IMG/VR virus record: IMGVR_UViG_3300044844_000854
Coordinates: 32,001 to 96,000 of that record
DNA length: 64,000 nt
Source: a virus
Reading direction: 5' to 3' (one strand)
Shown: positions 1,059-62,283 of the stretch, in pieces
How positions within the stretch are numbered: the stretch's first letter is position 1
How the letters are laid out: each line of letters starts with the position of its first letter
Notes under the pieces: model-generated
The model's database searches: none
Told to the model about the DNA's origin: nothing
Seen by the model: the letters and a program-made list of their open reading frames with translations, nothing else
Made by a program: the position numbers and the translations under genes

Positions 1059-1082
1059 TAGAAAAAAACGGAGATTACAAAA

Positions 1083-1775
1083 ATGGCTAAACAATTAAAA
1101 GAAATAGAAAAAGCAATCTATGACATATATAAAGATATAAAGCTAACATCTCTACTAGATAATGATAACACTCTTACAGATGTTACTGTATTTTTGGCAT
1201 ATCCTGAAACAGAGATACAACAAGATACAATCTATCCTGCAATTTCTATCAATCTTAGTGAAATGGAAATTGATTTTAAAATGGAACATGCATTACCTAG
1301 AACAGATATAGAAGTAGATTATACAACTACACCACCCACATATAGAACTAGAGAAACATCTCATTGGTATCGTTTAAGGTATTTGATAGAAACCTATGCA
1401 CTTACACCACAAGAAGATAGAGAACTTATTCGTAAGGTAGAGAATAGACTAAATATTCGTGATAGCTTAATTGTAGGTGATGAAGATTATTGGATTTTTC
1501 GCCTATCCTTTAGCACTCAAGACATAGAAGATACTGATCGTATTATCTACCATAAAATCTTTACATATGAAGTACTTGCAGATATTGATAATGAAGATAC
1601 TGACATCATTGAAAAAGGTGTTACAGAAATGCAATATACTTTTAAACAAGCTAAGACAATCGCAAACCAACCTGTTGATACACTAAATAGACCAACTACT
1701 GTAGAGAATGCAGTCAAATATACTGATAGAACTATGGCATTTAATGAAACTCAAATTTGGTTTCCTAGCAATTAA
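1083..1775 (+). CDS. Putative tail terminator / tail completion protein
   Basis: Immediately upstream of the sheath; YPAISI and LRYLIETYA motifs resemble tail-terminator (Pvc16/DUF4255-like) proteins. Confidence 0.55.
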   Translation: MAKQLKEIEKAIYDIYKDIKLTSLLDNDNTLTDVTVFLAYPETEIQQDTIYPAISINLSEMEIDFKMEHALPRTDIEVDYTTTPPTYRTRETSHWYRLRYLIETYALTPQEDRELIRKVENRLNIRDSLIVGDEDYWIFRLSFSTQDIEDTDRIIYHKIFTYEVLADIDNEDTDIIEKGVTEMQYTFKQAKTIANQPVDTLNRPTTVENAVKYTDRTMAFNETQIWFPSN

Positions 1776-1965
1776 CATAAATTTGACTAGACAATCACTT
1801 TTAAAACCTATATAACATAGATCATAAGCATACATATTAAATATATACTCTTAGACATCATAGCTACATTTTACTTGCTAAAATAGAATATATCTCACAA
1901 CAGTATTGATATATTTTACCATAATAGATAAGATTACTTATAAACCTAAAAATGGAGAATAACAA

Positions 1966-3798
1966 ATGGCAACAGTTTATGGCACTCCTGGAGTGTATAT
2001 TAAAGAAAGCAATCCTACAACTACCCCTATCATTACTGTGGGTACAGGTGTAACTGCTTTCTTTGGCTTTACAAAAAAAGGACCTGTACAAAAACCCGTA
2101 GCAGTAGCATCATATAAAGATTACCTAAAAGTATTTGGTGGTTGCTATAAGACAGAAAACCTTGATCTTTGTGTAAAAGCATTCTTTGATAACGGTGGCT
2201 CTAAAGCTTATATCGTTAGATTAACTGCAATCAATGGTGACTCACTTGTAGGTAGCCCATCTTCTGCTACTATTGGTGATTTTACTTTCAAAGCAGGTTA
2301 CAAAGGATTTCAAGCATTTGGTGAAGAAGGGGATAAATTAAAGGTATCTCTTAAACTTAACTCAAAATATGTAGCTAATGCAAATGGTGACCTAAAGGCA
2401 AATGCATCTATTGGTGCTTTGTTTATCTTGATGAAACAAGTAATTGGTATCTCTGCAGGTACTATCCTTAAAATTGCTGAAGGTGGCACTACTGAATATT
2501 TAGAAGTCACTAAGGTAGAAACTACTGTTGTTGCTGGTGCAGTACAAAATAAGGTATTCCTTGCATCTGCTCTTGACTCAGCATTTACTACAGCTTGCAC
2601 AATTAACTCTTTACACTATGATCTTAAAGTAAAAGATAATGCGGATAATGTACTTGAAACATTTAAGCAAGTATCTCTTAATCCATTTGCTAGCGATTAC
2701 ATTGGATTGGTTATCAATGATGATGTTGCAGGCTCTTCTTTCATTATGGTAGATGATGCTCAATTCGATTACTCTTTAGATGCACCTGAATTTGTAGGTG
2801 TTACTTCTCTTGCTGAAACTGTACAAGCATTTATCTTTGGTCAATCAGAAAAATTATCCTTTGACTCAGATAGCTTTATTGGTAATTCTACTATGGGATT
2901 TGGCTTACATGCTCTTGATAATGTCAATGACTTTAGCTTAATTGTAGCTCCACAATCTACAGATAATTCAGATGGACTTATTCGTGCAAATGAAATTTTC
3001 CATAGTGCATTATTAAGCTATGCTGAAACTCGTGGTAAATTTGCTATTTTAGATGCACCTAAAGGACTTACACCTTCTGAAATTGATAGCTATCGTAAAG
3101 CAACATTAGGTGTTGATAGCTATTGGGGTGCTTTATATTACCCACACATTAAGGTACAAGACCCTGCTCGTCCAGGTCAATCTGCTACCATTACTATCCC
3201 ACCTTGTGGACATATTGCAGGTTTATTTGCTAAGGTTGATGGTATTCCTGCCCCTGAAGGTGGTGTATCAAGTGCAGCCGCAGGCTTAAATAAATTTGGT
3301 CAATTGTCAGGACTTGTAGCACTTGAAAGAGTCGTATCTGATGCTGAACAAGAATTTTTAAATCCTGCAGGTGTAAATTGCATTCGCTTGCTTGATTTAG
3401 CAACAGGTGGTAAGGGTATTTTTGTATTTGGTGCTAGAACATTATCATCATTACCACAATATCTCTATATTCCCCTTAGAAGAACAATGAATTTTATTCA
3501 AGAAACAGTAAGACTTTCTACTAAACAATATCTGTTTCAAAAGAATAATCCTGCATTATGGTCAATTCTTAGCAATAACATTTCTGCATTCCTTACAGGT
3601 ATGTGGAATAATGGTCAACTTGCAGGCTCAAATGTTAAAGATGCATTCTTTGTAAAGATTGATGCAAGCACAAATTCACAAGAAGATATTAATCAAGGTA
3701 TCCTAAGTGGTGAAATTGGTGTTGCATTCCAAAGACCTGCAGAATTTATTGTCTTTACTTTCACACAAACACAATCAGGTGGTAGCATTCAAGAGTAA
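1966..3798 (+). CDS. Contractile tail sheath protein
   Basis: N-terminal TPGVYIKE, AFFDNGG, ALYYPHI, PPCGHIAG, LNPAGVNCIR, VFGARTL, C-terminal PAEFIVF: canonical sheath motifs. Confidence 0.95.
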   Translation: MATVYGTPGVYIKESNPTTTPIITVGTGVTAFFGFTKKGPVQKPVAVASYKDYLKVFGGCYKTENLDLCVKAFFDNGGSKAYIVRLTAINGDSLVGSPSSATIGDFTFKAGYKGFQAFGEEGDKLKVSLKLNSKYVANANGDLKANASIGALFILMKQVIGISAGTILKIAEGGTTEYLEVTKVETTVVAGAVQNKVFLASALDSAFTTACTINSLHYDLKVKDNADNVLETFKQVSLNPFASDYIGLVINDDVAGSSFIMVDDAQFDYSLDAPEFVGVTSLAETVQAFIFGQSEKLSFDSDSFIGNSTMGFGLHALDNVNDFSLIVAPQSTDNSDGLIRANEIFHSALLSYAETRGKFAILDAPKGLTPSEIDSYRKATLGVDSYWGALYYPHIKVQDPARPGQSATITIPPCGHIAGLFAKVDGIPAPEGGVSSAAAGLNKFGQLSGLVALERVVSDAEQEFLNPAGVNCIRLLDLATGGKGIFVFGARTLSSLPQYLYIPLRRTMNFIQETVRLSTKQYLFQKNNPALWSILSNNISAFLTGMWNNGQLAGSNVKDAFFVKIDASTNSQEDINQGILSGEIGVAFQRPAEFIVFTFTQTQSGGSIQE

Positions 3799-3838
3799 TA
3801 TCTTAGCTACATAAACACTAGATAAAGGAAAAACAAAA

Positions 3839-4327
3839 ATGGCAGATTTATTGATGAGAAACTTTAAGTTTGAAGTTGGTATTGCTGGTATTTCAACTAG
3901 TATTCAATTTCAATCTGTAACAGGTTTAGAAAAAACAATTGAAGAAATTGAATATCGTGAAGGTAGCGATAAATTAGTGGTTAGAAAATATCCTGGTCAA
4001 GCAAGCATTTCCAATGTTACTTTTGAACGTGGATTTTCAAGTGATAGTGATTTGATTGATTGGATCAATGCAAGCTATAATCCTGATATTGCAGCTAATG
4101 CACCAGCAGTACAAAATGCACCATCACCAATGAGAGATGTCAATATCAAGATTAAAGATCGTAACAATATCATTCAAAGAGAAATTGTACTTAAAGATTG
4201 TTTTGTTGTTAGTAGACAAATCGGTGATCTTGATGCAACAGGTAATGATATTCTTTTAGAAACACTAGAAGTTGCTTGTTCTGATATGATTGAAAGAAAA
4301 TATAGTGCTGAGGGCAGTACTAGATAA
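3839..4327 (+). CDS. Tail tube protein (T4 gp19-like / CIS tube)
   Basis: NFKFEV, FQSVTGL, IEYREG, KYPG, NVTFERG, LDATGNDILLETLEV; follows the sheath. Confidence 0.92.
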   Translation: MADLLMRNFKFEVGIAGISTSIQFQSVTGLEKTIEEIEYREGSDKLVVRKYPGQASISNVTFERGFSSDSDLIDWINASYNPDIAANAPAVQNAPSPMRDVNIKIKDRNNIIQREIVLKDCFVVSRQIGDLDATGNDILLETLEVACSDMIERKYSAEGSTR

Positions 4328-4435
4328 TCTCTTTAGCTTATACAATTATTGACAATCACTAATATAATTTATATAAACATAGCATAGAAAAAACGGAAAG
4401 TTAAAAAAACCATATCACAATGATAGGATAAAGCT

Positions 4436-5403: not shown

Positions 5404-5472
5404 TAAATCTCTAGTTTATATGCTATAAAATCATGTTAGATAATATACACTAAAAAAACGGAGATTTACAAA

Positions 5473-8835: not shown

Positions 8836-8925
8836 TGTATAAAAAACGGAATGTATAAAAAAAGGAATATAAAATCTCTTTAGTATGATATATTATGAAA
8901 ACAAAAATACTAAGGAGAATAAACA

Positions 8926-11505: not shown

Positions 11506-12921
11506 ATGGCAAGATTTACTAAAGGTTTAATGACCTACAAACAAGAAGAATATGAAACAAAACAATATGGTATATTTGCAGGTGTTGTTAAAGATACAAA
11601 TGATCCCCTTAAATTTGGTAGAGTAAAGGTATTTTGCCCATCTATCTATGCAGATCAACTTTCGCCCTGGTGTACACCATGCTTTCCAGGTGGTATGGGT
11701 ATGGAAAGTGGATTTGTAATTATACCAAGATTAGAAACTTATGTATGGGTAACATTTGAGGCAGGTGATGTATCTGCACCAATTTACTTAGGTGGATTTG
11801 CAGTAGAAACCCCTATAGGTAGAAATAGTGATAATTCAATTGTAGAGAATGATATTAAACACCAAGCAAATTCATCACCATTACCTACACATTCACAAGC
11901 AATCCCACAGGGTAGTGATGTATCTAGTATTCATACAACAGGTGCTACATTGCCACCTTCATTCAATTCTAGCTATGGTAGTAATATTGTATTTAAAACA
12001 CCTAGTGGCAACATGATTGAATTAGATGATACAGATGGTTATGAACGAATATCACTAAAGCATAATACAGATAGCTTAATGGAAATTAGAAATGATGGCA
12101 CAATCAATACTGTATCTACAGGTAACCAATACCAATATGTCGCAGGTGTGCTTAATCAAAAGATAGAAAAAGATAAAATTGTAGACACCAATATGTCTTT
12201 ATTTGAAACTGTTAATGGTAATGTTGTTAAGAATTACTTATCTAATTATTCACTAAATATAGGTGAAGATTTTTCACTTTCCGTTTTTTCAGGTGATGAG
12301 AATAAGGTTTGTAACTCACTTACTCATACTGTAAATGGTAGCTCTATCACATCTACATTAGGTGATCTTGAATTTTCTTCAGGCGGTAGCTTTAATCTTG
12401 CAGGTGCAAATAGCTTAAATCTATTCTCTATTGCAAATACTACAATCTTCTCTAGCAATTCACTAGATATTACAGGTTTAACTAAATCCATATCCATAAA
12501 GGGTAGCAATGGTGTTGCTGAATTAAATGCAAGTGATAGAACTAATCTTATATCCTATGGTGTAGAATGTATTGCTAATCCACAAACACTTACACAACAG
12601 GTATTTTTAGGTAATACTACTTTACCAAGTGCATCTCGTGTAGGTCCTACTACAATCCCTTTACTTAAAGAAGGTGTTGTTATGGGGACACAATTACAGA
12701 TTATGCTTACTGCTGTTATTCAAGCTATCTCTACCTATGCTAAACTACTATCTGCAGGTGGGAATGCACCAGGTCTTGGATTACCTGATCCCACACTAGC
12801 AGCAGCAAATATTGCACTTACTGTAGCACTAGATACAATTACTGCATTATACTTGACACCTATACCACCAAGTGGTAATCCTTTATTTGCTAGTGATAGT
12901 GTATTTGTATCTAAGAAATAA
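11506..12921 (+). CDS. Baseplate central spike (gp5/VgrG/gpV OB-fold)
   Basis: GVVKDTNDPLKFGRVKV, P....VWVTFEAGD...PIYLG, KTPSGNMIELDDT.G.ERI. Confidence 0.9.
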   Translation: MARFTKGLMTYKQEEYETKQYGIFAGVVKDTNDPLKFGRVKVFCPSIYADQLSPWCTPCFPGGMGMESGFVIIPRLETYVWVTFEAGDVSAPIYLGGFAVETPIGRNSDNSIVENDIKHQANSSPLPTHSQAIPQGSDVSSIHTTGATLPPSFNSSYGSNIVFKTPSGNMIELDDTDGYERISLKHNTDSLMEIRNDGTINTVSTGNQYQYVAGVLNQKIEKDKIVDTNMSLFETVNGNVVKNYLSNYSLNIGEDFSLSVFSGDENKVCNSLTHTVNGSSITSTLGDLEFSSGGSFNLAGANSLNLFSIANTTIFSSNSLDITGLTKSISIKGSNGVAELNASDRTNLISYGVECIANPQTLTQQVFLGNTTLPSASRVGPTTIPLLKEGVVMGTQLQIMLTAVIQAISTYAKLLSAGGNAPGLGLPDPTLAAANIALTVALDTITALYLTPIPPSGNPLFASDSVFVSKK

Positions 12922-13155: not shown

Positions 13156-13619
13156 TGAATGAGAAATTCCCCTTTACTGAATATATGGATAACCCTTTAG
13201 AATATATAAACAATTTACCTAGAAACCAATCAAATGCACTACAAGATCAAATCAAAACACTTGTAGATGAAATTGAAACTAAAAACAAACCATTTTGGGA
13301 AGAACAAGGCATTACAGAAGAGCAAGCATTACAACCAATTCTTGAAAGAACACTTGCAATGACTGAAATGATTAAAGGCACTGATAAAGGTAAGGAACTG
13401 CTAAAAAACGGAGATGTAAAAAAACAATTAAATCAAACACTCTTAGATATGAAAAATATGATAAATCTAGTAGGATATATTCAAAAGTCTAATGAAATAT
13501 CAAACCTAAAGCAAACTATGACAGGTCTTGCTAATGAGGTTGAAAGGAGTAAACATGAAATCCTACAAAGATTACCAATCCAACCAAACACCAATAGAAA
13601 AATCGGAACTACAAAATAG
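13155..13619 (+). CDS. Hypothetical helical protein
   Basis: 154-aa ORF coupled to the previous one (TAATG overlap). Confidence 0.55.
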   Translation: MNEKFPFTEYMDNPLEYINNLPRNQSNALQDQIKTLVDEIETKNKPFWEEQGITEEQALQPILERTLAMTEMIKGTDKGKELLKNGDVKKQLNQTLLDMKNMINLVGYIQKSNEISNLKQTMTGLANEVERSKHEILQRLPIQPNTNRKIGTTK

Positions 13620-26197: not shown

Positions 26198-26227
26198 TAG
26201 ATAGCATAAAAAAACGGAGATTACAAA

Positions 26228-26824
26228 ATGGAAAAGATTTTAGAATTCTTAGCTAAACAATACTTAAAGACTAATAACATTGCACCTACTACAAGTGATT
26301 TGATTTCATTGTTAGAAATCTGTCAACAAGAAAGCACATACTCTCAAGCAGTGCAAGCAAAGATTTTGGATATTCAAAAACCTGTATCTGTTATTCAGCA
26401 AGTAGGTAGTAATGCGATTGCTAAATTTAAAACAATCATTGTAAATGGCAAGAAAGTACAAGTACCTGTTCAAGGTGGCACAACTACTACTGCTACTACT
26501 AAGGTTGTTGATAAGAGTAGCCCAAATGGTGCTATTGCATTGATTGATATTATTAAAGGTGCTACAGGTGATACACTAATCAATAGTGATGTATCTAAAT
26601 GGCTTGTGGATAGTCCAAAAACTATGGAACTTCCCTTTAGTGATTTTGTTCTTACTAGTGATATTGTTGTATTTACTCAAGGTAATACTACTTGTTTTGG
26701 TATTACTACTAAGCCTATTACAAGTGAATTACTAGAAGTATTTGTATGGATTTCTAAGCCACAAGTTTTATCCATTCCGTTTTCTTCTGTATCTAAAGTA
26801 TATCGTTTATTACAAGAACCATAA
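26228..26824 (+). CDS. Hypothetical protein
   Basis: 198 aa; motif/RBS upstream. Confidence 0.5.
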   Translation: MEKILEFLAKQYLKTNNIAPTTSDLISLLEICQQESTYSQAVQAKILDIQKPVSVIQQVGSNAIAKFKTIIVNGKKVQVPVQGGTTTTATTKVVDKSSPNGAIALIDIIKGATGDTLINSDVSKWLVDSPKTMELPFSDFVLTSDIVVFTQGNTTCFGITTKPITSELLEVFVWISKPQVLSIPFSSVSKVYRLLQEP

Positions 26825-26848
26825 GCATAAAAAACGGAGAATAACAAA

Positions 26849-27217
26849 ATGACTATGACTACAATATTAGAACAATTACTACCTATTATGGGTACTGTTG
26901 TAAGTGCAATTGTTTCTTATGTACTCACTCTTCTAGCTAAGAGATACCAACTACAATTAAGCAATGAACAAGAAACTCAATTAAGACTTACTGTTCGTTC
27001 TGCTATTGCAGGTGCTGAAGAATGGGGTGCAAGAAAAATGAATGTTGAAAAACTTGATTATGTTAGTGGTAAGGAAAAGGCAGATTATGCTTTAGCTATC
27101 ATTAAGAGTTTATACCCAAAAGCAGAACAAGAAGATATGTTAAAGCTGATTGACTGTGAAATTGCTACTATGCAAGACTTGGGTGCAACTAAAAGAAAAA
27201 TCGACATTGAAATCTAA
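26849..27217 (+). CDS. Putative holin (LL-H-like)
   Basis: One N-terminal TM helix, then V.SAI.GAEE and GKEK.DYA, the LL-H holin signature. Confidence 0.7.
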   Translation: MTMTTILEQLLPIMGTVVSAIVSYVLTLLAKRYQLQLSNEQETQLRLTVRSAIAGAEEWGARKMNVEKLDYVSGKEKADYALAIIKSLYPKAEQEDMLKLIDCEIATMQDLGATKRKIDIEI

Positions 27218-27227: not shown

Positions 27228-27359
27228 ATGATAACAAGCATTGTCACTATCTTAGCTACTGCACTTACACCTGTTATTGTTAAGGCTATTGAAAAAGCAC
27301 TTGATTTAGATAAGCCTACTACCAAAAAACCTACTAAAAAGAAAAAAACGGAAGGTTAA
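27228..27359 (+). CDS. Unannotated 43-aa peptide with hydrophobic N-terminus and Lys-rich C-terminus
   Basis: MITSIVTILATALTPVIVKAIEKALDLDKPTTKKPTKKKKTEG; AAGG upstream; fills the gap after the holin. Confidence 0.55.
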   Translation: MITSIVTILATALTPVIVKAIEKALDLDKPTTKKPTKKKKTEG

Positions 27360-27361
27360 AA

Positions 27362-27706
27362 ATGGCAGGATTACATAACATAGAAATCATACAAGGATCA
27401 ACATTTACACTAGAGATACAATGGAAAGATGCAGATGATACACCTATCTCTTTAGATGGATTTCAAATTCATATGCAAATTAGAAAATCTTTTGAAGATA
27501 ACTCTACACCACTTGTTGATTTATCTCTAGGTAATGGTATAACTCTTACAGGTGAAATTGGTGGACTTAAAATCACAATTCCACATACTGTTACTAGAAA
27601 TATTACACAATCCACAGCAAAGTATGATATAGAAATTACTACACCTGATGAAGTAATCAATCTTCTTCGTGGCAATGTAAATATCATAGGAGAAATTACA
27701 AGATGA
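27362..27706 (+). CDS. Ig-like tail-fibre adaptor protein (LtfC/BppU-like)
   Basis: I.QGSTF, LDG....MQIR, YDIEI, L.G.V.I..EITR. Confidence 0.65.
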   Translation: MAGLHNIEIIQGSTFTLEIQWKDADDTPISLDGFQIHMQIRKSFEDNSTPLVDLSLGNGITLTGEIGGLKITIPHTVTRNITQSTAKYDIEITTPDEVINLLRGNVNIIGEITR

Positions 27707-28041: not shown

Positions 28042-28074
28042 AAGACAAACCCTTAAAAAAACGGAGCTTATAAA

Positions 28075-31109: not shown

Positions 31110-31160
31110 AAAACGGAATATTAAAAAACCAAACTACAAAAACACCATAGGAGATATACT

Positions 31161-42935: not shown

Positions 42936-43859
42936 ATGAAAAAAATTGATTTATTTAATGGTGGATATGTAGAATTATTGCACCAATATGGAACTGAACT
43001 TGATGTAATCAATGTAGCTAAGGTGTCATTTGATAATTCAGCAAATGAATGGCAATCACCATCTATGGATAAGCTATTTAATTATTTATGGCAACATGGT
43101 CATACATCACCATTTAGACATGTATTTTTATCATTTAGAGTACATGCACCTATATCCATTGTAAGACAGTGGGAAAAATATCGTGTAGGATCACCAATAG
43201 ATACACCAAGCAATGAAGTAAGTGGTCGCTATGTTGAACTAAAAGAAGAATTCTTTATCCCTAGCGAATGGCGAATACAATCTAAGAGTAATAAGCAAGG
43301 CTCATTTGGATCACTACCTGAAGAATTACAGCAGCAGATAGATGAAAAAACCAATGATCACTATAAGAATTGCCATGATTATTATGAAGAATTACTACAA
43401 TCAGGTGTAGCTAAAGAACAAGCAAGATTTGTATTACCTAATGGATTATACACTACATTTATTTGGACACCATCTTTACAAGCATTGATGCATTTCCTTG
43501 AGCAAAGATTATCTCATGATGCCCAAAAGGAATTACAGGAATATGCCAAAGCAGTATATGAAATTGCTAAAACAATCTATCCTAGATCAATGAATGTATT
43601 GTTAGATAAGATTGTGCCTAAGCACCACCATGTGATGACAATTCAAGAACAAAGTGTAGAAGAATTAAACCTTATCCCAATTCTACATGAAGGCTACCAA
43701 CTCTATGTAGAAAAAACGGAACTTGAAAAAATGGGTAAGAAAGAAACAAATAAGATAAGCCATATTATATATAAGATAGCTAAAGAAGATATAACTGCAT
43801 ATTGCTTAGGTAAAGACTTAAATCGCTTTAAAGAACATGGTTGGAAGGTTGTTGAATGA
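42936..43859 (+). CDS. thyX: Flavin-dependent thymidylate synthase with C-terminal extension
   Basis: A.VSF, HTSPFRH, RQW, NEVSGRY, GVAKEQARFVLP, R...AQKE. Start moved to ATG 42936. Confidence 0.92.
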   Translation: MKKIDLFNGGYVELLHQYGTELDVINVAKVSFDNSANEWQSPSMDKLFNYLWQHGHTSPFRHVFLSFRVHAPISIVRQWEKYRVGSPIDTPSNEVSGRYVELKEEFFIPSEWRIQSKSNKQGSFGSLPEELQQQIDEKTNDHYKNCHDYYEELLQSGVAKEQARFVLPNGLYTTFIWTPSLQALMHFLEQRLSHDAQKELQEYAKAVYEIAKTIYPRSMNVLLDKIVPKHHHVMTIQEQSVEELNLIPILHEGYQLYVEKTELEKMGKKETNKISHIIYKIAKEDITAYCLGKDLNRFKEHGWKVVE

Positions 43860-47144: not shown

Positions 47145-48455
47145 ATGAATACAACAGGCATGATATGTATGGCAAAAAACGGAATGTTAAAAAAAGATTT
47201 AGATAAGATCAAAAAAGACTTAACATTCATAGACTATACAGATGAACAATTTCCACAATATAAGCTATATATAGATACAAGTGATTTTATTTATATACCT
47301 AGAGGATATGATGATTTTAAATACTACCAAGTAGAAAGCATAGACATACCAAACACTATGCAAGAAAAAACGGAATTTAAAATCACCCTTAGAGAATATC
47401 AAAATAAAGCAGTAGATACACTATATGAAAATGTAATAGCTAAAGGTGGTGCAACTCTTATAGGTGGTTGTGGTACAGGTAAAACAATTATGGGAATTGC
47501 AACTGCTATGAGAATAAAACATAAAACTTGTATCTTAGTGCATAAAGAGTTTTTGATTGAACAATGGATTGAACGAATAGAGATGTCATGCTCAAATTGT
47601 AAGATAGGAATATGGCAACAAGATAAAATACCTGATGATGATTGTGATTTTGTAATAGCAATGGTGCAATCTCTATATGCTAGAACATATCCAAGTGAAG
47701 TATATGATAGATTTGATTTGGTAATTACAGATGAAGTCCATAGGTTTTCTGCACCTACATGGCAAAACATTATTAGTAATTTTAAAGCTAGGTATAGAAT
47801 AGGACTTACTGCCACACCCAATAGAAGAGATGGATTACAAGAAATATTTTACAATCATATAGGGAAATCTGTATATGAAATTCAAGGCACACTATTACAA
47901 CCAACAATCTTTAGGTATGAAACTAAGATAGGGATAGCAATCAATAAATACACTGATTTTAAAGGTGGATTAAACAATGCTAAACTACTTACAATCCTAG
48001 CAGAAAATAAAGATAGAAATACACAAATAGCAACACTACTTACCAATGCAAAAAAACGGAATAGGAAAATACTATTATTATCAGATAGAATAACAATGCT
48101 AGATAACTTACTAGATATACTTACAGGTGGTATAGGTGAAACAGAAGATGTAAGGAAATATGTAGGTGGATTATCTAGTAATGAGCGAGAACAAGCAAGT
48201 AAAGCTAAAATCATACTTGCCACTTATGGTATGGCACAGGAAGGACTTGATATTCCTGATATTGATACACTATTTCTAGCTACACCTAAAGCAGATGTTG
48301 TGCAAGCAGTAGGTAGAATATTAAGACCACACCCTGATAAACTTGAGCCTATTGTTATGGATTTTGTAGATCATACACCACTAACCTATGCTTTATACAA
48401 GAAGAGGAAAACAATGTATGAAACTAGCAACTATCTTATAAGAGATTATAAATGA
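47145..48455 (+). CDS. Superfamily 2 DNA helicase (UvsW/XPB-like)
   Basis: LREYQ, GCGTGKT, DEVH, LTAT, EGLDIP, QAVGRILR. Confidence 0.92.
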   Translation: MNTTGMICMAKNGMLKKDLDKIKKDLTFIDYTDEQFPQYKLYIDTSDFIYIPRGYDDFKYYQVESIDIPNTMQEKTEFKITLREYQNKAVDTLYENVIAKGGATLIGGCGTGKTIMGIATAMRIKHKTCILVHKEFLIEQWIERIEMSCSNCKIGIWQQDKIPDDDCDFVIAMVQSLYARTYPSEVYDRFDLVITDEVHRFSAPTWQNIISNFKARYRIGLTATPNRRDGLQEIFYNHIGKSVYEIQGTLLQPTIFRYETKIGIAINKYTDFKGGLNNAKLLTILAENKDRNTQIATLLTNAKKRNRKILLLSDRITMLDNLLDILTGGIGETEDVRKYVGGLSSNEREQASKAKIILATYGMAQEGLDIPDIDTLFLATPKADVVQAVGRILRPHPDKLEPIVMDFVDHTPLTYALYKKRKTMYETSNYLIRDYK

Positions 48456-51830: not shown

Positions 51831-51891
51831 CTGATTGTTCATGTCTAAATACATGATATAAAAAAACGGAATAGCTAAAAAAGGATTTAAA

Positions 51892-52854
51892 ATGATTGAA
51901 TACTCAAGAAGAAATGTAGATATATCTTTAGATAAAATCACTACTACATTTATCAGCAATCCAAGACAATCTTATGATGAAGATTATATCACATCACTTA
52001 TGCAGAGTATTGCAAGTATTGGTCAACAACAAGCAGTATGTGTATATGAAATTACTAAAGGTAAATATGGACTTGTATGGGGATTTTGTAGATTTAAAGC
52101 GATAGAAGAACTATCCAAGCATGGTGAAGGTGATAATACCATTCGTGCAGATATTTTAGATCCCAAGACTAATATGGGGGATTTACTATTACTTAACCTA
52201 CAAGAGAATGTTGTAAGAAAACAATTGACACCTTTAGAAGAGGCTAAGGCAATTGAATACCTACAAGATCATAAAACACAAGATGAAATTTGTGATGCTT
52301 TAGGTTGGTCAAAATCCCTATTTACACAAAGATCAAAAATCCTTAGCTATTCTGAAATCCTACAACAAGCTATTCAAGATGGATTACCTACTAGAGCAGC
52401 ATCTCTTATCTCTGAATTACCAGAAGAATTACATGAGAAGTATATTGATATTGCAATGACTACATCTGTAGTTAAATTAAGAGAATTGATTGATGCTTAT
52501 CTTAACTCTAATCAAGATGAAAGAGAGCCTGTTGATGTATCTAGCATTACACTTGATACAAATGATGAAGAAGAAGAACAAGAAGATAATGATACTGATT
52601 ATATTGAGTCACCTACATTATCTAGAGCAGGTGATTTAAGGGATTTACTATTATCCTTACTATCTCAAGTTACAGATAGTGATGATCAAATTATGGCAGT
52701 TCAATCCATTGATTTTACAAGACTACTATCCGTTGATCAAGATCGCTTATTATCCGTCCTACAATTCTTAGCTAGTGATGATGATGATATTGAATATGAA
52801 GAAGTAGATGATGATGATGATGATGACTTTGATGATGATGATGATGATGAGTAA
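51892..52854 (+). CDS. parB: ParB/Spo0J-like protein with HTH and poly-Asp tail
   Basis: NPRQ, L..SI...GQQQ.V.V, G..R, ENVVRKQLTPLEEA, TQDEI..ALGWS. Confidence 0.8.
   Translation: MIEYSRRNVDISLDKITTTFISNPRQSYDEDYITSLMQSIASIGQQQAVCVYEITKGKYGLVWGFCRFKAIEELSKHGEGDNTIRADILDPKTNMGDLLLLNLQENVVRKQLTPLEEAKAIEYLQDHKTQDEICDALGWSKSLFTQRSKILSYSEILQQAIQDGLPTRAASLISELPEELHEKYIDIAMTTSVVKLRELIDAYLNSNQDEREPVDVSSITLDTNDEEEEQEDNDTDYIESPTLSRAGDLRDLLLSLLSQVTDSDDQIMAVQSIDFTRLLSVDQDRLLSVLQFLASDDDDIEYEEVDDDDDDDFDDDDDDE
52775..52850 (+). repeat. (GAT)n trinucleotide tract encoding poly-Asp
   Basis: Several runs of GATGATGAT at the end of the parB-like ORF. Confidence 0.85.
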
Positions 52855-56236: not shown

Positions 56237-56272
56237 ACCAACCATAACACAAGAAAAACGGAACAAACAAAA

Positions 56273-56560
56273 ATGGAAGAAAAACAAATTATCAACTTAA
56301 AGGTTAGTGGTAAATCTGATCCATCTAAAGTAGCAGGTGCTATTGTAAAATATATGCATGAAGGTAATGAAGTAGAAATCACTACTATTGGTGCAAGTGC
56401 AATCAATCAAGCAGTAAAAGCTCTAGCAATTGCAAGGGGAATGGTAGGAACAAGTGGCTATGATTTATCATTTATTGTAGGTTTTGCAGAAGAAACAATT
56501 GATGATGAATTAAGAACAGCAATTAAATTCTTCCCTATCAAGACTAAATTTGGTAAATAA
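56273..56560 (+). CDS. spoVS: SpoVS family (Alba-like) protein
   Basis: LKVS.KS.P..VAGAI, IGA.A.NQAVKA.AIARG, F....ID..RTAIK: near-canonical SpoVS. Confidence 0.93.
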   Translation: MEEKQIINLKVSGKSDPSKVAGAIVKYMHEGNEVEITTIGASAINQAVKALAIARGMVGTSGYDLSFIVGFAEETIDDELRTAIKFFPIKTKFGK

Positions 56561-56603
56561 TAACTACTCACTACTCACTCACTAAAAAAACGGACATTTA
56601 AAA

Positions 56604-56663
56604 ATGGCTAAAACACAAATGCCTACTAAAGATAAAGGCACAACCAAACCAAAGAAATGCTAA
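56604..56663 (+). CDS. Possible 19-aa basic peptide
   Basis: MAKTQMPTKDKGTTKPKKC; ATG lies 10 nt after a motif CGG, the same spacing as at genuine gene starts. Confidence 0.35.
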   Translation: MAKTQMPTKDKGTTKPKKC

Positions 56664-58558: not shown

Positions 58559-59593
58559 ATGCGAGAACTCACTTTTGAAGAAGAAACAGCAATCACTTTA
58601 CTAGAAACTGCTGTAAGACTAAAACCCAAAGCAACTGCACTCAAAAACGGAGCAGAAAAACTTTTGTCATTTTTAAACTCTAACAGATCAGAACGACCAA
58701 AACTGACTGAAAAGAATATTGAAGAACTTGACAATGTGTTAGCTAAACATGGTATCAACTTGGCAGTATTGTTAAAGACACAACCTACTACACAAGCTAA
58801 ACAGACACCTATCGTAAATCCTGCAATGGAAGCATATAAACAAGCATTTGCGATTGCAACACCTATTGTTAGTGATAGTAGTGTTGAACAACCAAAGGCA
58901 ACTGTTACTGTGCTAAATAGCCAAATCGAAACAATTAAGAGTAAATTGTTAAAGTTAAGACTACAATTCAAACTTGATGATAAAGCAAACAAAAACAAGA
59001 ATGAATGGCTTGATACCTTTTCTAGTGATTGTTTAGATCGTATTGCAAAATATGGTGATCGCACAAAATTTACAGATAAGCAGATTGATGTGATCAACAA
59101 ATATGTACAAGATGATGATAACAATCTTAGCTACACACCACAGACAAACTACACACTTGCAGATGTTAGTGGTAATAAGCTAAGAGAACTTATCCTACAT
59201 ACTCGTGATGTAATGGGCAAATATGCTATTGTAGGTGATACAATTCAGCACAACTACTCTATGTTATGGAATACACAAAGTGCTACAATCAACAAGCTAC
59301 TTACACTTGAACTTACAGATGCACAAATTGTTTGGATTGTAGACTTTATGATCAAACTACAAGAAAATAGTCGTATTGTTGCTAAGGATCACAAAGAAGA
59401 TGATCGTAGAAAAAACTATTTCAAATGTGTAGAACTACTTAAAAAACTTGTAGATGGTTTAGCTACCAAACAAGACTTACTTACTAAAGAAGATCGTGTG
59501 TTTTTACAAAGCTATGTTAAAAATACTTGGTCAAATGAGCCAATCCAAGAAGTAATCAACAGAACTGTTGAAACACAAAGAGAAAGACAATAA
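58559..59593 (+). CDS. Hypothetical protein with repeated helical T.KQI/T.KNI motifs
   Basis: 344 aa; LTEKNI, FTDKQI and LTDAQI repeats. Confidence 0.6.
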   Translation: MRELTFEEETAITLLETAVRLKPKATALKNGAEKLLSFLNSNRSERPKLTEKNIEELDNVLAKHGINLAVLLKTQPTTQAKQTPIVNPAMEAYKQAFAIATPIVSDSSVEQPKATVTVLNSQIETIKSKLLKLRLQFKLDDKANKNKNEWLDTFSSDCLDRIAKYGDRTKFTDKQIDVINKYVQDDDNNLSYTPQTNYTLADVSGNKLRELILHTRDVMGKYAIVGDTIQHNYSMLWNTQSATINKLLTLELTDAQIVWIVDFMIKLQENSRIVAKDHKEDDRRKNYFKCVELLKKLVDGLATKQDLLTKEDRVFLQSYVKNTWSNEPIQEVINRTVETQRERQ

Positions 59594-61156: not shown

Positions 61157-61459
61157 ATGCAAATCACTACATTAAATTTAAAAGGTTGCTTGATTGATCA
61201 ATTATTGGTAGATGAAGAAAAACCAAGACACAAGCTAATGAAAACATACTCATATAAAAATAAATGGTTTGTGGAAATCTATGAGGCATTTAATTCACGA
61301 ACTAATTCAAGAACAAGAGTATTTGCAAATCTTTTAGCACCTGATGATGCTTTTAGAACAATCCCTACACTTGCAACTAAGCATAGAATTTTTACATCTA
61401 TGTATGAACATAAGAATATAGATGAATTGGAATACCAAGATTTAGTTAAAGGTATGTAA
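61157..61459 (+). CDS. Hypothetical protein
   Basis: 100 aa; RBS AGGAG. Confidence 0.55.
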   Translation: MQITTLNLKGCLIDQLLVDEEKPRHKLMKTYSYKNKWFVEIYEAFNSRTNSRTRVFANLLAPDDAFRTIPTLATKHRIFTSMYEHKNIDELEYQDLVKGM

Positions 61460-61524
61460 GATAATCTATCAAACTTAAACATAACAACAACAAAAAAACG
61501 GGAATTTAAAAAATACCTTAGATA

Positions 61525-61553
61525 TATACTAACAACACTTAGATCGTTATACT
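61525..61553 (+). promoter_or_regulatory. Promoter (CACTTAG variant) for the helicase loader gene
   Basis: TAGATA-TATACT-17-TATACT with CACTTAG at 61536-61542. Confidence 0.55.
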
Positions 61554-61612
61554 CTATACCATATCAATCATTGATATATTTTTTCTATTCCGTTTTTCTC
61601 AAGGAAACACAG

Positions 61613-62254
61613 ATGACACAACAACAATACTCAAGACCTAGAGTTGAACTTACACCAAAGGTACTTGATAGATTAAACATCGGTAAACGATATTGGCAAT
61701 CGTCCTTAGATACCTTGCCTAAAGAAAGCAAACACTATTCAATCACTAAAGAATATGTTAAGGAATTTGCACTTAAATATGAGCCTAAAGGTATTGGCTT
61801 GTTTCTATGGGGTAACAATTCCACAGGTAAAACATGGACTGCTACTGCTATCCTTAAAGAACTTGCTCATATTGGCTACACTGCATACACTATCTTAGGT
61901 GATGAACTTCGAGCAATTTATATAAACAATCAGATGTTCGATCCTGATAACTCTATCATTAGATGGGTAGAGAATGTCGAAATCCTTTTGATTGAAGATA
62001 TTGGTAAAGAGTATAATGCTAGTGGCAGTGGTTGGGCAGAACTATGCTTTGAAAACCTGCTTAGAAAGCGATCACGAAATCTAAAGGTAACTATCATTAC
62101 TACAAATTTGTCACCAGATGAATTTAAAGATAGGTACAAAAACTCTGCTATGGCTATCTTACTAGAGTCAATGATAGCTATACAAGTGAAATCAACTGAC
62201 AATCGTGCTAAAATCCAAGCAGAGATACAAAAAACAATCGTTAATCCTAGCTAA
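61613..62254 (+). CDS. dnaC: DnaC/IstB-like AAA+ helicase loader
   Basis: GLFLWGNNSTGKT, LLIEDIGKE, TIITTNL. Start moved to ATG 61613 (RBS AAGGA). Confidence 0.8.
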   Translation: MTQQQYSRPRVELTPKVLDRLNIGKRYWQSSLDTLPKESKHYSITKEYVKEFALKYEPKGIGLFLWGNNSTGKTWTATAILKELAHIGYTAYTILGDELRAIYINNQMFDPDNSIIRWVENVEILLIEDIGKEYNASGSGWAELCFENLLRKRSRNLKVTIITTNLSPDEFKDRYKNSAMAILLESMIAIQVKSTDNRAKIQAEIQKTIVNPS

Positions 62255-62283
62255 AAAAACGGAACATATAAAAAGGCATAGTA

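What the first reader, a model, noticed from the sequence alone, without database searches (positions are those of the whole stretch)
1062..62274. Genome-wide polar DNA motif AAAAAACGG-R-N4-6-AAAAA: candidate undescribed cis-acting system
Seen: about 50 + strand copies in 64 kb (roughly one per 1.3 kb) against 4 reversed, spread over structural, modification and replication modules, in a genome where CG looks scarce. A rough estimate with assumed base frequencies (A~0.39, C~0.15, G~0.16) gives only about 2 chance copies of AAAAACGG. The second A-tract downstream is conserved in most copies, so the site is about 20 bp and bipartite. The A-tracts are about 14-15 bp apart centre to centre, which is not the in-phase spacing of a static bend. 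Known analogues: mycobacteriophage stoperators and start-associated sequences, Chi/KOPS polar signals, DNA uptake sequences. I recognise none with this sequence. Inference: a binding site for a phage protein (candidates here: ParB-HTH 51892, MerR-like HTH 49141, SpoVS, the DpdA C-terminal domain) or a phage-specific promoter, antitermination, packaging or modification signal.
Basis: partly seen in the sequence, partly recalled or inferred. Interest (0 to 1): 0.9.

Follow-up and report, generated by a model that had tools for sequence, protein, structure and literature searches.

The report
Oriented 21-base signal across phage genome
An uncultured 104.6-kb freshwater phage carries about 85 copies of one 21-base signal that points along its genes; a third of the copies serve as ribosome-binding sites, the rest have no known role, and the factor that reads the signal is unknown.

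Summary
AAAAACGG occurs 49 times on + and 3 times on - in the window, against 0.7 expected. In the whole 104,574-bp phage genome it occurs 83+/7-. It is the core of a 21-nt asymmetric motif, A6-CGG-A-R-n-w-T-w-A6.

27 copies have a start codon 9-13 nt after GG (10-11 nt in 24), with no other Shine-Dalgarno sequence. These copies prefer CGGAG (15/27 against 3/56, p=7e-7), so there the motif is the ribosome-binding site.

The other 56 copies keep the full motif without a start codon. Some sit just after stop codons, often 20-50 nt before -10-like promoter elements. Others lie inside genes, written with rare codons (32 copies against 5.4 in codon-preserving shuffles).

Orientation follows the gene: the one clear minus-strand gene has a reversed copy, and a relative keeps it. 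That relative (terminase 88% identical) keeps the motif. Relatives at or below 67% lack it and use ordinary AAGGAG sites.

No phage RNA polymerase or sigma factor was recognised. Function is not shown.

My best guess (0.35) is a stoperator-like operator network for a phage DNA-binding protein, co-opted as RBS. Rivals are an RNA-level SAS-like element (0.25), a promoter (0.15) and other DNA marks (0.1).

The scan's other first-stage notes describe the same motif in overlapping windows of this genome.

The parts
1063..1083 (+). motif copy, class I: RBS of ORF 1083-1775
   Evidence: 24.1 bits; ATG 11 nt after GG; CGGAG
4388..4408 (+). motif copy, class IIa: intergenic, next start 39 nt on, which has its own AGGA
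   Evidence: 25.2 bits
5453..5473 (+). motif copy, class I: RBS of ORF 5473-8835 (1120 aa)
   Evidence: 24.2 bits; ATG at 11 nt; CGGAG
8841..8861 (+). motif copy, class IIa: begins in the stop codon of ORF 5473-8835; next start 76 nt on
   Evidence: 22.9 bits
9640..9660 (-). reversed full copy, antisense inside ORF 9537-9842
   Evidence: 22.7 bits
9849..9869 (+). motif copy, class I: RBS of ORF 9868-11496
   Evidence: 21.7 bits; ATG at 10 nt
12269..12289 (-). reversed full copy, antisense inside ORF 11506-12921
   Evidence: 23.2 bits
12941..12961 (+). motif copy, class I: RBS of ORF 12961-13155
   Evidence: 25.1 bits; ATG at 11 nt
13403..13423 (+). motif copy, class IIb: inside ORF 13155-13619
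   Evidence: 24.5 bits
13622..13642 (+). motif copy, class IIb: 4 nt after the stop of ORF 13155-13619, inside the long reading of ORF 13534-15045
   Evidence: 18.1 bits
15458..15478 (+). motif copy, class IIa: AGGA follows directly, ATG 20 nt after GG (ORF 15487-17385)
   Evidence: 21.7 bits
17076..17096 (+). motif copy, class IIb: inside ORF 15487-17385
   Evidence: 16.9 bits
18005..18025 (+). motif copy, class IIb: inside ORF 17382-18917
   Evidence: 20.0 bits
18938..18958 (+). motif copy, class IIa: after a stop; CCTTAGAT-ATTA-TATAAA promoter-like element 40 nt on
   Evidence: 25.5 bits
19083..19103 (+). motif copy, class IIb: 54 nt into ORF 19030-19584
   Evidence: 21.9 bits
19605..19625 (+). 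motif copy, class IIa: preceded by CTTAGA, followed by AGGA; ATG 21 nt after GG (ORF 19635-25733)
   Evidence: 24.8 bits
25803..25823 (+). motif copy, class I: RBS of ORF 25823-26197
   Evidence: 21.6 bits; ATG at 11 nt; CGGAG
26209..26229 (+). motif copy, class I: RBS of ORF 26228-26824
   Evidence: 22.5 bits; ATG at 10 nt; CGGAG
26829..26849 (+). motif copy, class I: RBS of ORF 26849-27217
   Evidence: 23.2 bits; ATG at 11 nt; CGGAG
27343..27363 (+). motif copy, class I: RBS of ORF 27362-27706
   Evidence: 23.7 bits; ATG at 10 nt
28056..28076 (+). motif copy, class I: RBS of ORF 28075-29436
   Evidence: 22.3 bits; ATG at 10 nt; CGGAG
31108..31128 (+). motif copy, class IIa: begins in the stop codon of ORF 30816-31109; next start 44 nt on with AGGAG
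   Evidence: 26.4 bits
32167..32187 (+). motif copy, class I: RBS of ORF 32186-32581
   Evidence: 20.2 bits; ATG at 10 nt
32948..32968 (+). motif copy at the 3' end of ORF 32574-32972; ATG of ORF 32972-34084 is 15 nt after GG
   Evidence: 23.2 bits
33579..33599 (+). motif copy, class IIb: inside ORF 32972-34084
   Evidence: 20.2 bits
34068..34088 (+). motif copy, class I: RBS of ORF 34087-34713, overlapping the end of the upstream ORF
   Evidence: 24.0 bits; ATG at 10 nt
34995..35015 (+). motif copy, class I: RBS of ORF 35016-35792 (QueC-like)
   Evidence: 22.9 bits; ATG at 12 nt
35513..35533 (+). motif copy, class IIb: inside ORF 35016-35792
   Evidence: 20.8 bits
37481..37501 (+). motif copy, class IIa: 34 nt before the ATG of the ribonucleotide reductase gene 37524-39491
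   Evidence: 25.0 bits
38008..38028 (+). core copy with a weak 3' half, inside ORF 37524-39491
   Evidence: 15.0 bits
38389..38409 (+). motif copy, class IIb: inside ORF 37524-39491
   Evidence: 17.3 bits
39514..39534 (+). motif copy, class IIa: right after a stop; CTTAGA 27 nt on
   Evidence: 22.6 bits
41190..41210 (+). motif copy, class IIa: right after a stop; CCTTAGAT-TATATT 46 nt on
   Evidence: 24.2 bits
42375..42395 (+). motif copy, class I: RBS of ORF 42395-42805
   Evidence: 25.1 bits; ATG at 11 nt
43711..43731 (+). motif copy inside the thyX-like ORF 42936-43859; ATG at 11 nt opens only a 42-codon frame (doubtful start)
   Evidence: 26.0 bits
45130..45150 (+). motif copy, class I: RBS of the DNA polymerase A gene (GTG 45152); core strengthened to CGGAGGA
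   Evidence: 23.7 bits; GTG at 13 nt
47174..47194 (+). motif copy, class IIb: 30 nt into helicase ORF 47145-48455, which has its own TAAGGAG
   Evidence: 25.4 bits
47365..47385 (+). motif copy, class IIb: inside ORF 47145-48455
   Evidence: 19.4 bits
48051..48071 (+). motif copy, class IIb: inside ORF 47145-48455
   Evidence: 20.4 bits
49121..49141 (+). motif copy, class I: RBS of ORF 49141-49839
   Evidence: 24.0 bits; ATG at 11 nt; CGGAG
51861..51881 (+). motif copy, class IIa: AGGA follows; ATG of the ParB-like gene 22 nt after GG
   Evidence: 20.7 bits
53238..53258 (+). core only, no 3' half, inside ORF 52858-53562; possibly a chance copy
   Evidence: 10.2 bits
54702..54722 (+). motif copy, class IIb: inside exonuclease ORF 54578-55681
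   Evidence: 22.9 bits
55680..55700 (+). motif copy, class IIa: begins in the stop codon of ORF 54578-55681; next start 44 nt on
   Evidence: 27.0 bits, the best copy
56253..56273 (+). motif copy, class I: RBS of the SpoVS-like gene 56273-56560
   Evidence: 17.5 bits; ATG at 11 nt
56585..56605 (+). motif copy, intergenic; ATG at 10 nt opens only a 19-codon frame
   Evidence: 22.3 bits
56698..56718 (+). motif copy, class I: RBS of radical-SAM ORF 56718-57422
   Evidence: 23.9 bits; ATG at 11 nt
58642..58662 (+). motif copy, class IIb: 84 nt into ORF 58559-59593
   Evidence: 16.2 bits
60035..60055 (+). motif copy, class IIa: right after a stop; next start 207 nt on
   Evidence: 25.5 bits
61493..61513 (+). 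motif copy, class IIa: followed by two CTTAGAT-N-TATACT elements; faces the reversed copy at 61578-61598
   Evidence: 24.7 bits
61578..61598 (-). reversed copy in the same intergenic region, just before ORF 61613-62254
   Evidence: 18.2 bits
62254..62274 (+). motif copy, class IIa: starts in the last base of the stop codon; AGGC follows; ATG 21 nt after GG
   Evidence: 24.1 bits
49141..49839 (+). candidate reader of the motif (not shown): 232-aa protein with two HTH-like segments
   Evidence: Pfam MerR at 128-172; phrog_19880 'transcriptional regulator', 2 stretches, best at 39-83; structure model unusable
51892..52854 (+). candidate reader (not shown): ParB-like N domain plus ParB HTH, with an acidic tail
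   Evidence: Pfam PF02195 and PF17762; PHROG ParB-like families
56273..56560 (+). candidate reader (not shown): SpoVS-family protein
   Evidence: Pfam PF04232, E 7e-27

Best explanation
The motif is the recognition site of a sequence-specific factor encoded by this phage lineage, and it is laid down in the direction of transcription throughout the genome. I think it most likely works on double-stranded DNA as a network of asymmetric operators, like the stoperators of Cluster A mycobacteriophages. A monomeric protein with two DNA-binding parts would sit on each 21-bp site and act on the host RNA polymerase in an orientation-dependent way. One candidate is the 232-aa protein with two HTH-like segments at 49141-49839. 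Because intergenic gaps are short and the invariant core contains GGA, 27 copies have been built into the ribosome-binding site of the next gene. In those, the start codon is packed directly against the 3' A-tract and position 9 is tuned to G, giving GGAG. Shown here: the motif itself, its excess, its orientation rule, its RBS use, its selection inside genes and its restriction to one clade. Inferred: that a protein reads it, that it is read on DNA, and what the effect on transcription is.
For: (1) The excess is extreme and the definition sharp: 84 + sites of 16 bits or more against 0.2 expected, with few degenerate copies. This fits a specific macromolecular reader rather than composition. 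(2) All 21 positions are kept alike in copies with and without a start codon. Two thirds of the copies (56/83) are not at starts, so translation initiation cannot be the primary role. (3) The C and both A-tracts cannot be explained by pairing with the usual 16S rRNA 3' end; only GGAG pairs (my own alignment to the standard anti-SD, not a tool result). (4) The motif is selected at nucleotide level inside genes: 32 copies against 5.4 +/- 1.9 in codon-preserving shuffles, K-N-G is written AAAAACGG in 14 of 18 cases although AAT is three times commoner than AAC, and 16 of the 48 ACG codons lie in the motif. In the giant ORF the two related phages have 3 and 4 copies at non-orthologous places, made by substitutions rather than insertions. 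(5) Orientation follows the gene. The only clear minus-strand gene (genome 16473-16862) has a reversed full copy 26 nt before its ATG, and the relative L197 conserves it. (6) Five full reversed copies against 0.2 expected, three of them antisense within genes, are easier to accept for a DNA site than for a sense-RNA site. (7) Copies lie both just downstream of -10-like elements (TATACT ... CTTAGA-motif-ATG) and 22-47 nt upstream of them at no fixed register. This resembles operators plus stoperators rather than a promoter part. (8) The motif is clade-specific. It is kept in a relative with 88% TerL identity, where intergenic sites are conserved while flanks diverge. It is absent from 78 loci of relatives at 39-67% identity, which use AAGGAG(G). 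(9) Known precedent: L5-type repressors bind more than twenty asymmetric 13-mers in promoters and short intergenic spaces, oriented with transcription, using two domains of a monomer (PMC9283540).
Against: No binding was tested and no candidate has a confident structure (pLDDT 45). No immunity repressor, integrase or ParA was recognised, so there is no sign of the lysogeny that gives stoperators their purpose. Many small ORFs remain unassigned. The invariant GGA in every copy could mean that ribosome or RNA recognition is primary. Metatranscriptome contigs run across copies at genome 29875 and 31088, so in those samples the sites did not stop transcription. Density is not enforced: the 2032-aa gene has none over 6.2 kb, and spacing is not more regular than chance (CV 0.84, p 0.07).
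Confidence: 0.35

Rival explanations
1. RNA-level element of the start-associated-sequence kind. The motif acts in the mRNA as a specialised leader or intercistronic signal containing the Shine-Dalgarno core. It would be read by the ribosome together with a phage- or host-encoded RNA-binding factor: a translational activator or repressor in the manner of T4 RegA, an endoribonuclease in the manner of T4 RegB, or a CsrA-type protein whose core site is A-N-GGA. Copies away from starts would serve as standby or decoy ribosome sites, or as processing or stability sites.
For: 27 copies are the only possible SD of their gene, at 9-13 nt (10-11 nt in 24). They prefer GGAG (15/27 against 3/56, p 6.7e-7), and the GTG-started polymerase gene has GGAGGA. 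8 of 9 intergenic gaps of 20-39 nt consist of the motif. GGA is invariant in all copies. Sense orientation holds, including at the minus-strand gene. RNA contigs cover the copies, so they are transcribed. Precedent: Cluster K SAS, a 13-mer with AGGAG whose flanks cannot pair with rRNA, in one orientation and of unknown function (PMC3203893, PMC12699233).
Against: Two thirds of the copies are not at starts, and about 25 lie inside ORFs, where a ribosome-binding or cleavage site should be harmful or masked by translation. Full reversed copies inside genes (3) are unexplained. The most highly expressed virion genes (capsid, tube, portal) use ordinary AAGGA(G) sites 4-8 nt from ATG, and the motif's SD sits at a long 8-9 nt. 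Class II copies carry only GGAA, a weak SD.
Confidence: 0.25
2. Phage-specific promoter. The motif would be an extended -10-type element (G-A-R-n-w-T read as a minimal -10 with A-11 and T-7, and the A-rich stretch as discriminator). It would be read by host RNA polymerase carrying an unrecognised phage factor, or by an unrecognised phage polymerase. Transcription would start at or just after the 3' A-tract, giving leaderless mRNAs at the 27 start-adjacent copies and short SD-led leaders elsewhere. Intragenic copies would be internal promoters.
For: Spacing to ATG is sharp, at 10-11 nt. Other copies lie 20-111 nt upstream of genes that have their own SD, like leaders of ordinary length. Copies occur at most junctions that are not translationally coupled. 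Each lineage having its own sequence is typical of phage promoter and polymerase pairs. An earlier report of this scan (e1-3438119) read a different oriented motif in about 90-kb myophages as a promoter with leaderless starts; that is a lead only.
Against: The GGAG/GGAGGA preference at start-adjacent copies shows that the motif is part of the translated mRNA there, and a GTG start is a poor leaderless start. No RNA polymerase or sigma factor was recognised in about 85 ORFs scanned against Pfam and/or PHROGs. Host-type promoters exist: TTGACT-17-TATAAT at the left end, TTGACT-17-TATAAA before the capsid operon, and about 14 CTTAGA/TATAMT elements. One sheath-region RNA contig starts at such an element, 116 nt before the ATG, though a contig end cannot show a transcript start. 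The motif occurs in early, replication and structural modules alike, and three copies sit a few nt downstream of a -10-like box. No base upstream of the A-run is conserved.
Confidence: 0.15
3. A DNA mark unrelated to gene expression. Possibilities are the target of site-specific 7-deazaguanine (hyper)modification by the phage's DpdA-like enzyme, perhaps aimed by the ParB-like protein as DpdB aids DpdA in bacteria; a strand-specific nick site as in T5; or a Chi/KOPS/uptake-type polar signal for a DNA translocase or recombinase.
For: The excess is oriented and genome-wide, with turnover of intragenic copies, as for Chi, KOPS or uptake signals. In most class II copies the core CGG is the only G/C in the motif, within a CpG-poor genome. 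The phage encodes FolE, QueD, QueC, QueE-like and DpdA-like proteins plus glycosyltransferases. Bacterial DpdA needs the ParB-like ATPase DpdB (PMC10164549).
Against: Orientation flips with the single minus-strand gene in two phages. The spacing to start codons is sharp. 61% of copies lie in the 12% of the genome that is non-coding. Spacing is not regular, and one gap reaches 6.2 kb. Known phage DpdA targets are 2-3 nt long: GA, and GA with GGC (PMC10484667, PMC7544227).
Confidence: 0.1
4. A by-product of composition, codon usage or assembly with no function.
For: The genome is A-rich and lysine-rich, so A-runs are common.
Against: Expected 0.7 against 52 observed in dinucleotide shuffles, 5.4 against 32 in codon shuffles, and 0.2 against 84 for the full matrix. 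The motif recurs at orthologous junctions of an independent assembly with diverged flanks.
Confidence: 0.01

Closest known systems
Start-associated sequences (SAS) of Cluster K mycobacteriophages (Pope et al. 2011, PMC3203893)
   Same: An asymmetric conserved oligomer that contains the Shine-Dalgarno core and sits at a fixed short distance before start codons of many unrelated genes. Flanking positions are conserved but cannot pair with 16S rRNA. Nearly all copies share one orientation, with a rare reversed copy. It is specific to one phage cluster and not found in hosts, and its function is still unknown (PMC12699233).
   Different: SAS is a 13-mer (GGGATAGGAGCCC) 3-7 bp from the start, with about 15 copies per genome, confined to the non-structural arm and almost always at starts. 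Here the motif is a 21-mer with two A-tracts and 83-90 copies in every module. Only a third are at starts (10-11 nt after GG) and about 25 lie inside genes. There is no sequence similarity.
Operators and stoperators of Cluster A mycobacteriophages (L5 gp71; TipsytheTRex repressor, PMC9283540)
   Same: Many copies of an asymmetric site lie in promoters and in short intergenic spaces across the genome, oriented with transcription. The sequence is lineage-specific. A monomer with two DNA-binding parts is a workable reader for a non-palindromic site.
   Different: Stoperators are 13-mers with 20-36 copies per genome, belong to temperate phages with a known repressor, and do not double as ribosome-binding sites. 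Here no repressor, integrase or lysogeny module was recognised, copies are about three times denser, and many are written into coding sequence.
T4 RegA and RegB targets (own knowledge, not checked in a paper here)
   Same: A phage-encoded protein recognises a short sequence in the translation-initiation regions of many phage mRNAs. RegB cuts within GGAG.
   Different: Those sites are short and degenerate and limited to one temporal class. No RegA or RegB homologue was recognised here.
Genome-wide polar oligomers of bacteria (Chi, KOPS, DNA uptake sequences; own knowledge)
   Same: Strong over-representation at about one copy per kb, strand bias, copies tolerated in coding sequence, and turnover between relatives. 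The Haemophilus uptake signal also has a core followed by A/T-rich tracts.
   Different: Those signals belong to the host genome and follow replication or DNA-end polarity, not the direction of the local gene. They have no fixed relation to start codons.

Membership tests
Start-associated sequences (Cluster K) | 13-bp consensus GGGATAGGAGCCC | tested here: not met
   The consensus here is A6-CGG-A-R-n-w-T-w-A6; only GGAG is shared.
Start-associated sequences (Cluster K) | Virtually all copies lie within a few nt upstream of a start codon | tested here: not met
   27 of 83 copies have a start 9-13 nt after GG; 56 do not.
Start-associated sequences (Cluster K) | Contains the SD core, with conserved flanks that cannot pair with rRNA | tested here: met
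   CGGAG occurs in 15/27 start-adjacent copies. C5 and the A-tracts do not extend pairing with the usual anti-SD (own alignment).
Start-associated sequences (Cluster K) | One orientation; absent from other phages and from hosts | tested here: inconclusive
   83+/7-. Absent from 78 relatives' loci. The host is unknown.
Stoperator networks (Cluster A) | Many asymmetric sites in promoters and short intergenic spaces, oriented with transcription | tested here: met
   51 of 83 copies are non-coding, 8 of 9 gaps of 20-39 nt carry one, and orientation flips with the minus-strand gene.
Stoperator networks (Cluster A) | A cognate immunity repressor and a temperate life style | tested here: not met
   No repressor, integrase or ParA appeared in Pfam/PHROG scans of about 85 ORFs. 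A protein with two HTH-like segments exists but is unassigned.
Stoperator networks (Cluster A) | Protein binding that blocks elongation in one orientation only | not testable with these tools
   Needs EMSA and reporter assays.
Phage-specific promoters (T7-type, T4 late or middle type) | A cognate phage RNA polymerase, sigma factor or activator | tested here: not met
   None was recognised (same scans). D-x-D-x-D strings occur in the two giant ORFs, but in acidic low-complexity contexts. The Atlas search of the 2826-aa ORF gave nothing.
Phage-specific promoters (T7-type, T4 late or middle type) | Transcripts start at a fixed distance from the motif | tested here: inconclusive
   Only assembled RNA contigs were available. 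They bridge copies and cannot show starts.
Chi / KOPS / uptake-type polar signals | Orientation tied to replication or DNA ends, and the signal shared with the host chromosome | tested here: not met
   Orientation follows the local gene.
DpdA target motif | Guanines of the site carry a 7-deazaguanine | not testable with these tools
   Needs native DNA. Known targets are GA and GGC (PMC10484667, PMC7544227).

The most novel reading that the evidence does not exclude
One 21-nt element serves two layers at once. On DNA it would be the docking site of a phage protein that controls elongating host RNA polymerase genome-wide and directionally. On the mRNA made from the same site it is the Shine-Dalgarno region. 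A single factor could then gate both transcription and translation of a lytic phage's genes at about 85 places. In a variant, the sites are the defined targets of the phage's expanded 7-deazaguanine pathway, a site-specific epigenetic self-mark rather than bulk anti-restriction modification.
Probability: 0.12. Interest if true: 0.85.

Novelty: new variant of a known kind. Interest (0 to 1): 0.6.

Why it matters
Genome-wide oriented repeats are known in a few phage groups. The mechanism is understood for the stoperators, while the start-associated sequences have been unexplained since 2011.

This phage offers an unusually dense and clean case. It has about 85 near-identical 21-mers in a 104.6-kb genome, one per 1.26 kb. 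They show clear selection even inside genes, a sharp split between copies that are ribosome-binding sites and copies that are not, and a sister genome for comparison.

It would also offer a way to test whether SAS-like elements act on DNA or on RNA.

For annotation, the motif fixes the start codons of a quarter of the genes in an uncultured phage lineage.

Tried and rejected
- **Close relatives in cultured phages:** none (megablast of 25 kb). The sheath protein reaches at most about 32% identity.
- **Host-derived or widespread motif:** exact-pattern scans of IMG/VR and of 185,579 species genomes returned only scattered single matches apart from this phage's own contigs. One 43%-GC contig (L095) had 7 + copies of the 8-mer, but without the 3' half.
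- **Equivalent motif in relatives:** 8-mer counts and k-mers upstream of starts in 78 loci with TerL 39-67% identity gave only ordinary SD words, tandem iterons and early promoters. The TCGTGAC motif of an earlier report is not enriched in them.
- **RNA evidence:** four metatranscriptome runs (freshwater, estuary) hold only short assembled contigs of the capsid-sheath region. There is no information on transcript ends, and parts without cover say nothing.
- **Closed or unavailable look-ups:** The whole record behind L197 is not held.
- **Intrinsic terminators and sigma-70 consensus promoters:** neither is enriched in window 1-20000.
- **Regular spacing** (Okazaki or packaging idea): CV 0.84 against 0.98 for random placement, p 0.07.
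- **Insertion origin of intragenic copies:** rejected. Alignments show substitutions.
- **Rfam and tRNAs:** no Rfam family in the window, and no tRNA in the genome parts outside the window (the window was not scanned).
- **Literature search for the sequence:** only primers.
- **Structure of the protein with two HTH-like segments:** single-sequence model at pLDDT 45, so no fold search was made. Its homologues in IMG/VR are only itself.
- **Atlas search of the middle of the 2826-aa ORF:** nothing usable.
- **Look-alike windows in this scan:** none.

Full report
**What the window is.** The window is bases 32001-96000 of a single 104,574-bp contig. The last 55 or so bases of the contig repeat the first ones, so the genome is probably complete. 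It is a contractile-tailed phage. Profile searches found:
- tail sheath, baseplate J and a gp5-like hub;
- T4-type large terminase and an SPP1-type portal;
- family A DNA polymerase, helicases, RecA, class II ribonucleotide reductase and ThyX;
- DnaB- and DnaG-like proteins;
- a 7-deazaguanine set: FolE, QueD, QueC, a radical-SAM QueE-like protein and a DpdA-like transglycosylase.

All long ORFs but one are on the + strand. GC is 32% and CpG is at 0.27 of expectation. No cultured phage is close. Identical contigs are in IMG/VR. RNA contigs of its capsid and sheath genes occur in freshwater and estuary metatranscriptomes.

**The observation.** AAAAACGG occurs 49 times on + and 3 times on - in the window, against 0.69 expected. 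It occurs 83 and 7 times in the genome. It is the most frequent 8-mer, and near-variants are rare.

Aligning the 83 copies gives a 21-nt asymmetric motif:
- A at -1 (90%), then AAAAACGG (positions 0-7, invariant by definition);
- A at position 8 (82%) and A/G at position 9;
- two loose positions, T at position 12 (70%), one loose position;
- six positions of A at 73-98%.

Nothing upstream of the A-run is conserved. A weight matrix finds 84 sites of 16 bits or more on +, 5 on -, and 0.2 in shuffles, with only about ten weaker look-alikes.

**Where the copies lie.** I called ORFs crudely: longest ATG-started frames on + of at least 45 codons, made non-overlapping. By that call, 51 copies lie in the 12% of the genome that is non-coding and 32 lie in ORFs. 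There are three situations.

*Class I (27 copies, 18 in the window).* A start codon that opens a real ORF follows 9-13 nt after GG, nearly always 10 or 11 nt, so the ATG abuts or shares the last A of the 3' A-tract. These genes have no other purine-rich element, so the motif's GGA(G) must be their Shine-Dalgarno sequence. Position 9 is G in 15 of 27 class I copies but in 3 of 56 others (Fisher p 6.7e-7). The GTG-started polymerase gene has CGGAGGA. Selection for a better SD exactly where a start follows means that the motif is transcribed and used as a ribosome-binding site there. Genes without the motif have ordinary AAGGA(G) 4-8 nt from ATG, including the capsid, portal and tube genes.

*Class IIa (about 26 copies).* These are intergenic copies not at a start. 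They often begin in or a few nt after the upstream stop codon, and the next gene, 20-355 nt on, has its own SD. In the left 8 kb every gene is followed by such a copy. In several gaps the copy is followed after 22-47 nt, at no fixed register, by CTTAGA(T/A)-N3-5-TATAMT, often with TGn. This looks like an extended -10 promoter. In three gaps the order is the reverse: -10-like box, CTTAGA, motif, ATG.

*Class IIb (about 25 copies).* These lie inside ORFs, mostly in two reading frames (K-N-G and K-T-x). A codon-preserving shuffle gives 5.4 +/- 1.9 copies against 32 observed. K-N-G is encoded AAAAACGG in 14 of 18 cases although AAT is three times commoner than AAC. One third of all ACG codons of the genome lie in the motif.

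Both classes keep the 3' half equally well. Eight of nine gaps of 20-39 nt consist of the motif.

**Orientation.** Five of the seven reversed copies are full motifs. One of them lies 26 nt before the ATG of the only clear minus-strand gene (129 aa, genome 16473-16862, outside the window). The same arrangement is conserved in the relative L197. Orientation therefore follows the local gene rather than the genome as a whole. That speaks against a replication, packaging or Chi-type polarity signal. Three other reversed copies are antisense inside genes and remain unexplained.

**Relatives.** The terminase has more than a thousand uncultured homologues.
- In 78 IMG/VR loci with 39-67% identity the 8-mer is not enriched, and upstream regions show only AAGGAG(G).
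- One metagenome contig of 104,176 bp (L197, 88% terminase identity, 67-87% nucleotide identity in patches) has 20 + and 3 - copies in 21.7 kb, with the same bipartite form.
- Where the two genomes align, all five intergenic copies are conserved while their flanks have diverged or carry indels. Intragenic copies come and go.
- In the giant ORF (2826 aa here) the two phages have three and four copies at different places, created by substitutions.

The motif is thus young, restricted to one narrow lineage, maintained at junctions and repeatedly created in coding sequence.

**What it is not.**
- *Composition* is excluded by the shuffles.
- *A pure ribosome-binding site* is excluded because two thirds of the copies have no start. 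In addition, C5 and the A-tracts add nothing to pairing with the usual anti-SD (own alignment).
- *A terminator of the usual kind* is excluded, as there is no hairpin or T-run. Such terminators are not enriched at all, and RNA contigs run across two copies.
- *A promoter* is not excluded but is weakened. The SD preference shows read-through mRNAs matter. No phage polymerase or sigma factor was recognised in about 85 ORFs scanned. Host-type promoters are present, with one RNA contig beginning at such an element 116 nt before the sheath ATG, though a contig end cannot show a transcript start. The motif is spread over early, replication and virion modules.

**Most likely mechanism.** What remains is a site for a lineage-specific reader. 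I favour a DNA-binding protein and a stoperator-like network (0.35), for four reasons. The site is long, asymmetric and sharply defined. It lies in and near promoters and in short gaps, always pointing with transcription. It tolerates a few reversed copies. It can be written into genes at flexible positions.

The start-adjacent third is then explained by economy. A 21-nt site that contains GGA and must sit in a 20-40-nt gap can only coexist with a ribosome-binding site by becoming it. The closest packing of ATG against the 3' A-tract gives exactly the 10-11 nt observed.

A candidate reader is the 232-aa protein with two HTH-like segments, whose own gene is preceded by a class I copy. The ParB-like and SpoVS proteins are alternatives. 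None was tested, and the one structure model was unusable.

A promoter (0.15) and a DNA mark tied to the 7-deazaguanine pathway or to nicking (0.1) follow. The remaining 0.15 covers the composition rival (0.01) and mechanisms not considered here.

**Comparison with known systems and novelty.** By behaviour it stands between SAS and stoperators. Like SAS, an SD is embedded in a conserved asymmetric oligomer at starts. Like stoperators, asymmetric sites in promoters and gaps are oriented with transcription and read by a two-domain monomer (PMC9283540). It is a member of neither family. The sequences are unrelated, most copies are not at starts, no repressor or lysogeny genes were recognised, and the density and the coding-sequence copies are unusual. 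I rate it a new variant of a known kind of system, of moderate to high interest, with the mechanism open.

Other first-stage notes of this scan describe the same motif in overlapping windows of this genome. I found no follow-up and no look-alike elsewhere in the scan.

Noticed in passing
window 18979-18996, 41237-41252, 61516-61555, 29489-29512; also genome 6332, 17849, 96154, 99972, 100663, 101886: A second recurrent intergenic element, CTTAGA(T/A)-N3-5-TATAMT (often TGnTATACT), occurs about 14 times. It is probably a set of extended -10 promoters for the host polymerase. CTTAGA also occurs right after a TATACT box. One RNA contig starts exactly at such a CTTAGA, 116 nt before the sheath ATG.
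   Followed up: partly
genome 1-55 and 104520-104574 (outside the window): The contig ends repeat each other (ATATAATAAATAATCCATAATCTAAA... followed by 11-bp GATCTAAACTT repeats). The assembly is therefore probably a complete, circularly closed or terminally redundant genome. TTGACA/TTGACT-17-TATAAT promoters follow at 108-195.
   Followed up: partly
genome 10283-12455 (outside the window): A 2.2-kb non-coding region holds a long CTGTYG microsatellite facing ACAGC repeats, and many short repeats such as GATAAATG and AAAATGG. It is a likely replication origin or iteron region. Relatives carry different tandem iterons at the same place (L122, L135).
   Followed up: no
genome 16473-16862, minus strand (outside the window): This is the only clear minus-strand gene (129 aa, coiled-coil-like, no family). 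It is conserved in the relative L197 together with its reversed motif copy.
   Followed up: partly
genome 19661-28141 (outside the window) and window 19635-25733: Two giant ORFs (2826 and 2032 aa) have no Pfam or PHROG match. The first diverges fast (34% identity to the homologue in a phage whose terminase is 88% identical).
   Followed up: partly
window 31161-37415, 56718-57422; genome 12455-12892: A 7-deazaguanine pathway is present: GTP cyclohydrolase, QueD, QueC, a radical-SAM protein, and a 539-aa DpdA-like protein that matches only PHROG 887. It is interleaved with a HAD/heptose-isomerase-like protein, a glycosyltransferase and unassigned ORFs. A family 2 glycosyltransferase lies at 52858-53562.
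   Followed up: partly
whole window: CpG is at 0.27 of expectation, and 11% of all CpG in the window lie in the motif. Several terminase relatives with 35-40% GC are equally CpG-poor (0.29-0.43).
   Followed up: no
window 1948-1968 and genome 28837-28856: One-base variants of the motif serve as ribosome-binding sites of the sheath gene (AAAAATGGAGAATAACAA-ATG) and of a 73-aa gene (AAAAAATCGGAGCTTACAAA-ATG).
   Followed up: partly
window 56585-56665: A full motif copy is followed at 10 nt by an ATG that opens only a 19-codon frame. This may be a small leader peptide upstream of the radical-SAM gene.
   Followed up: no
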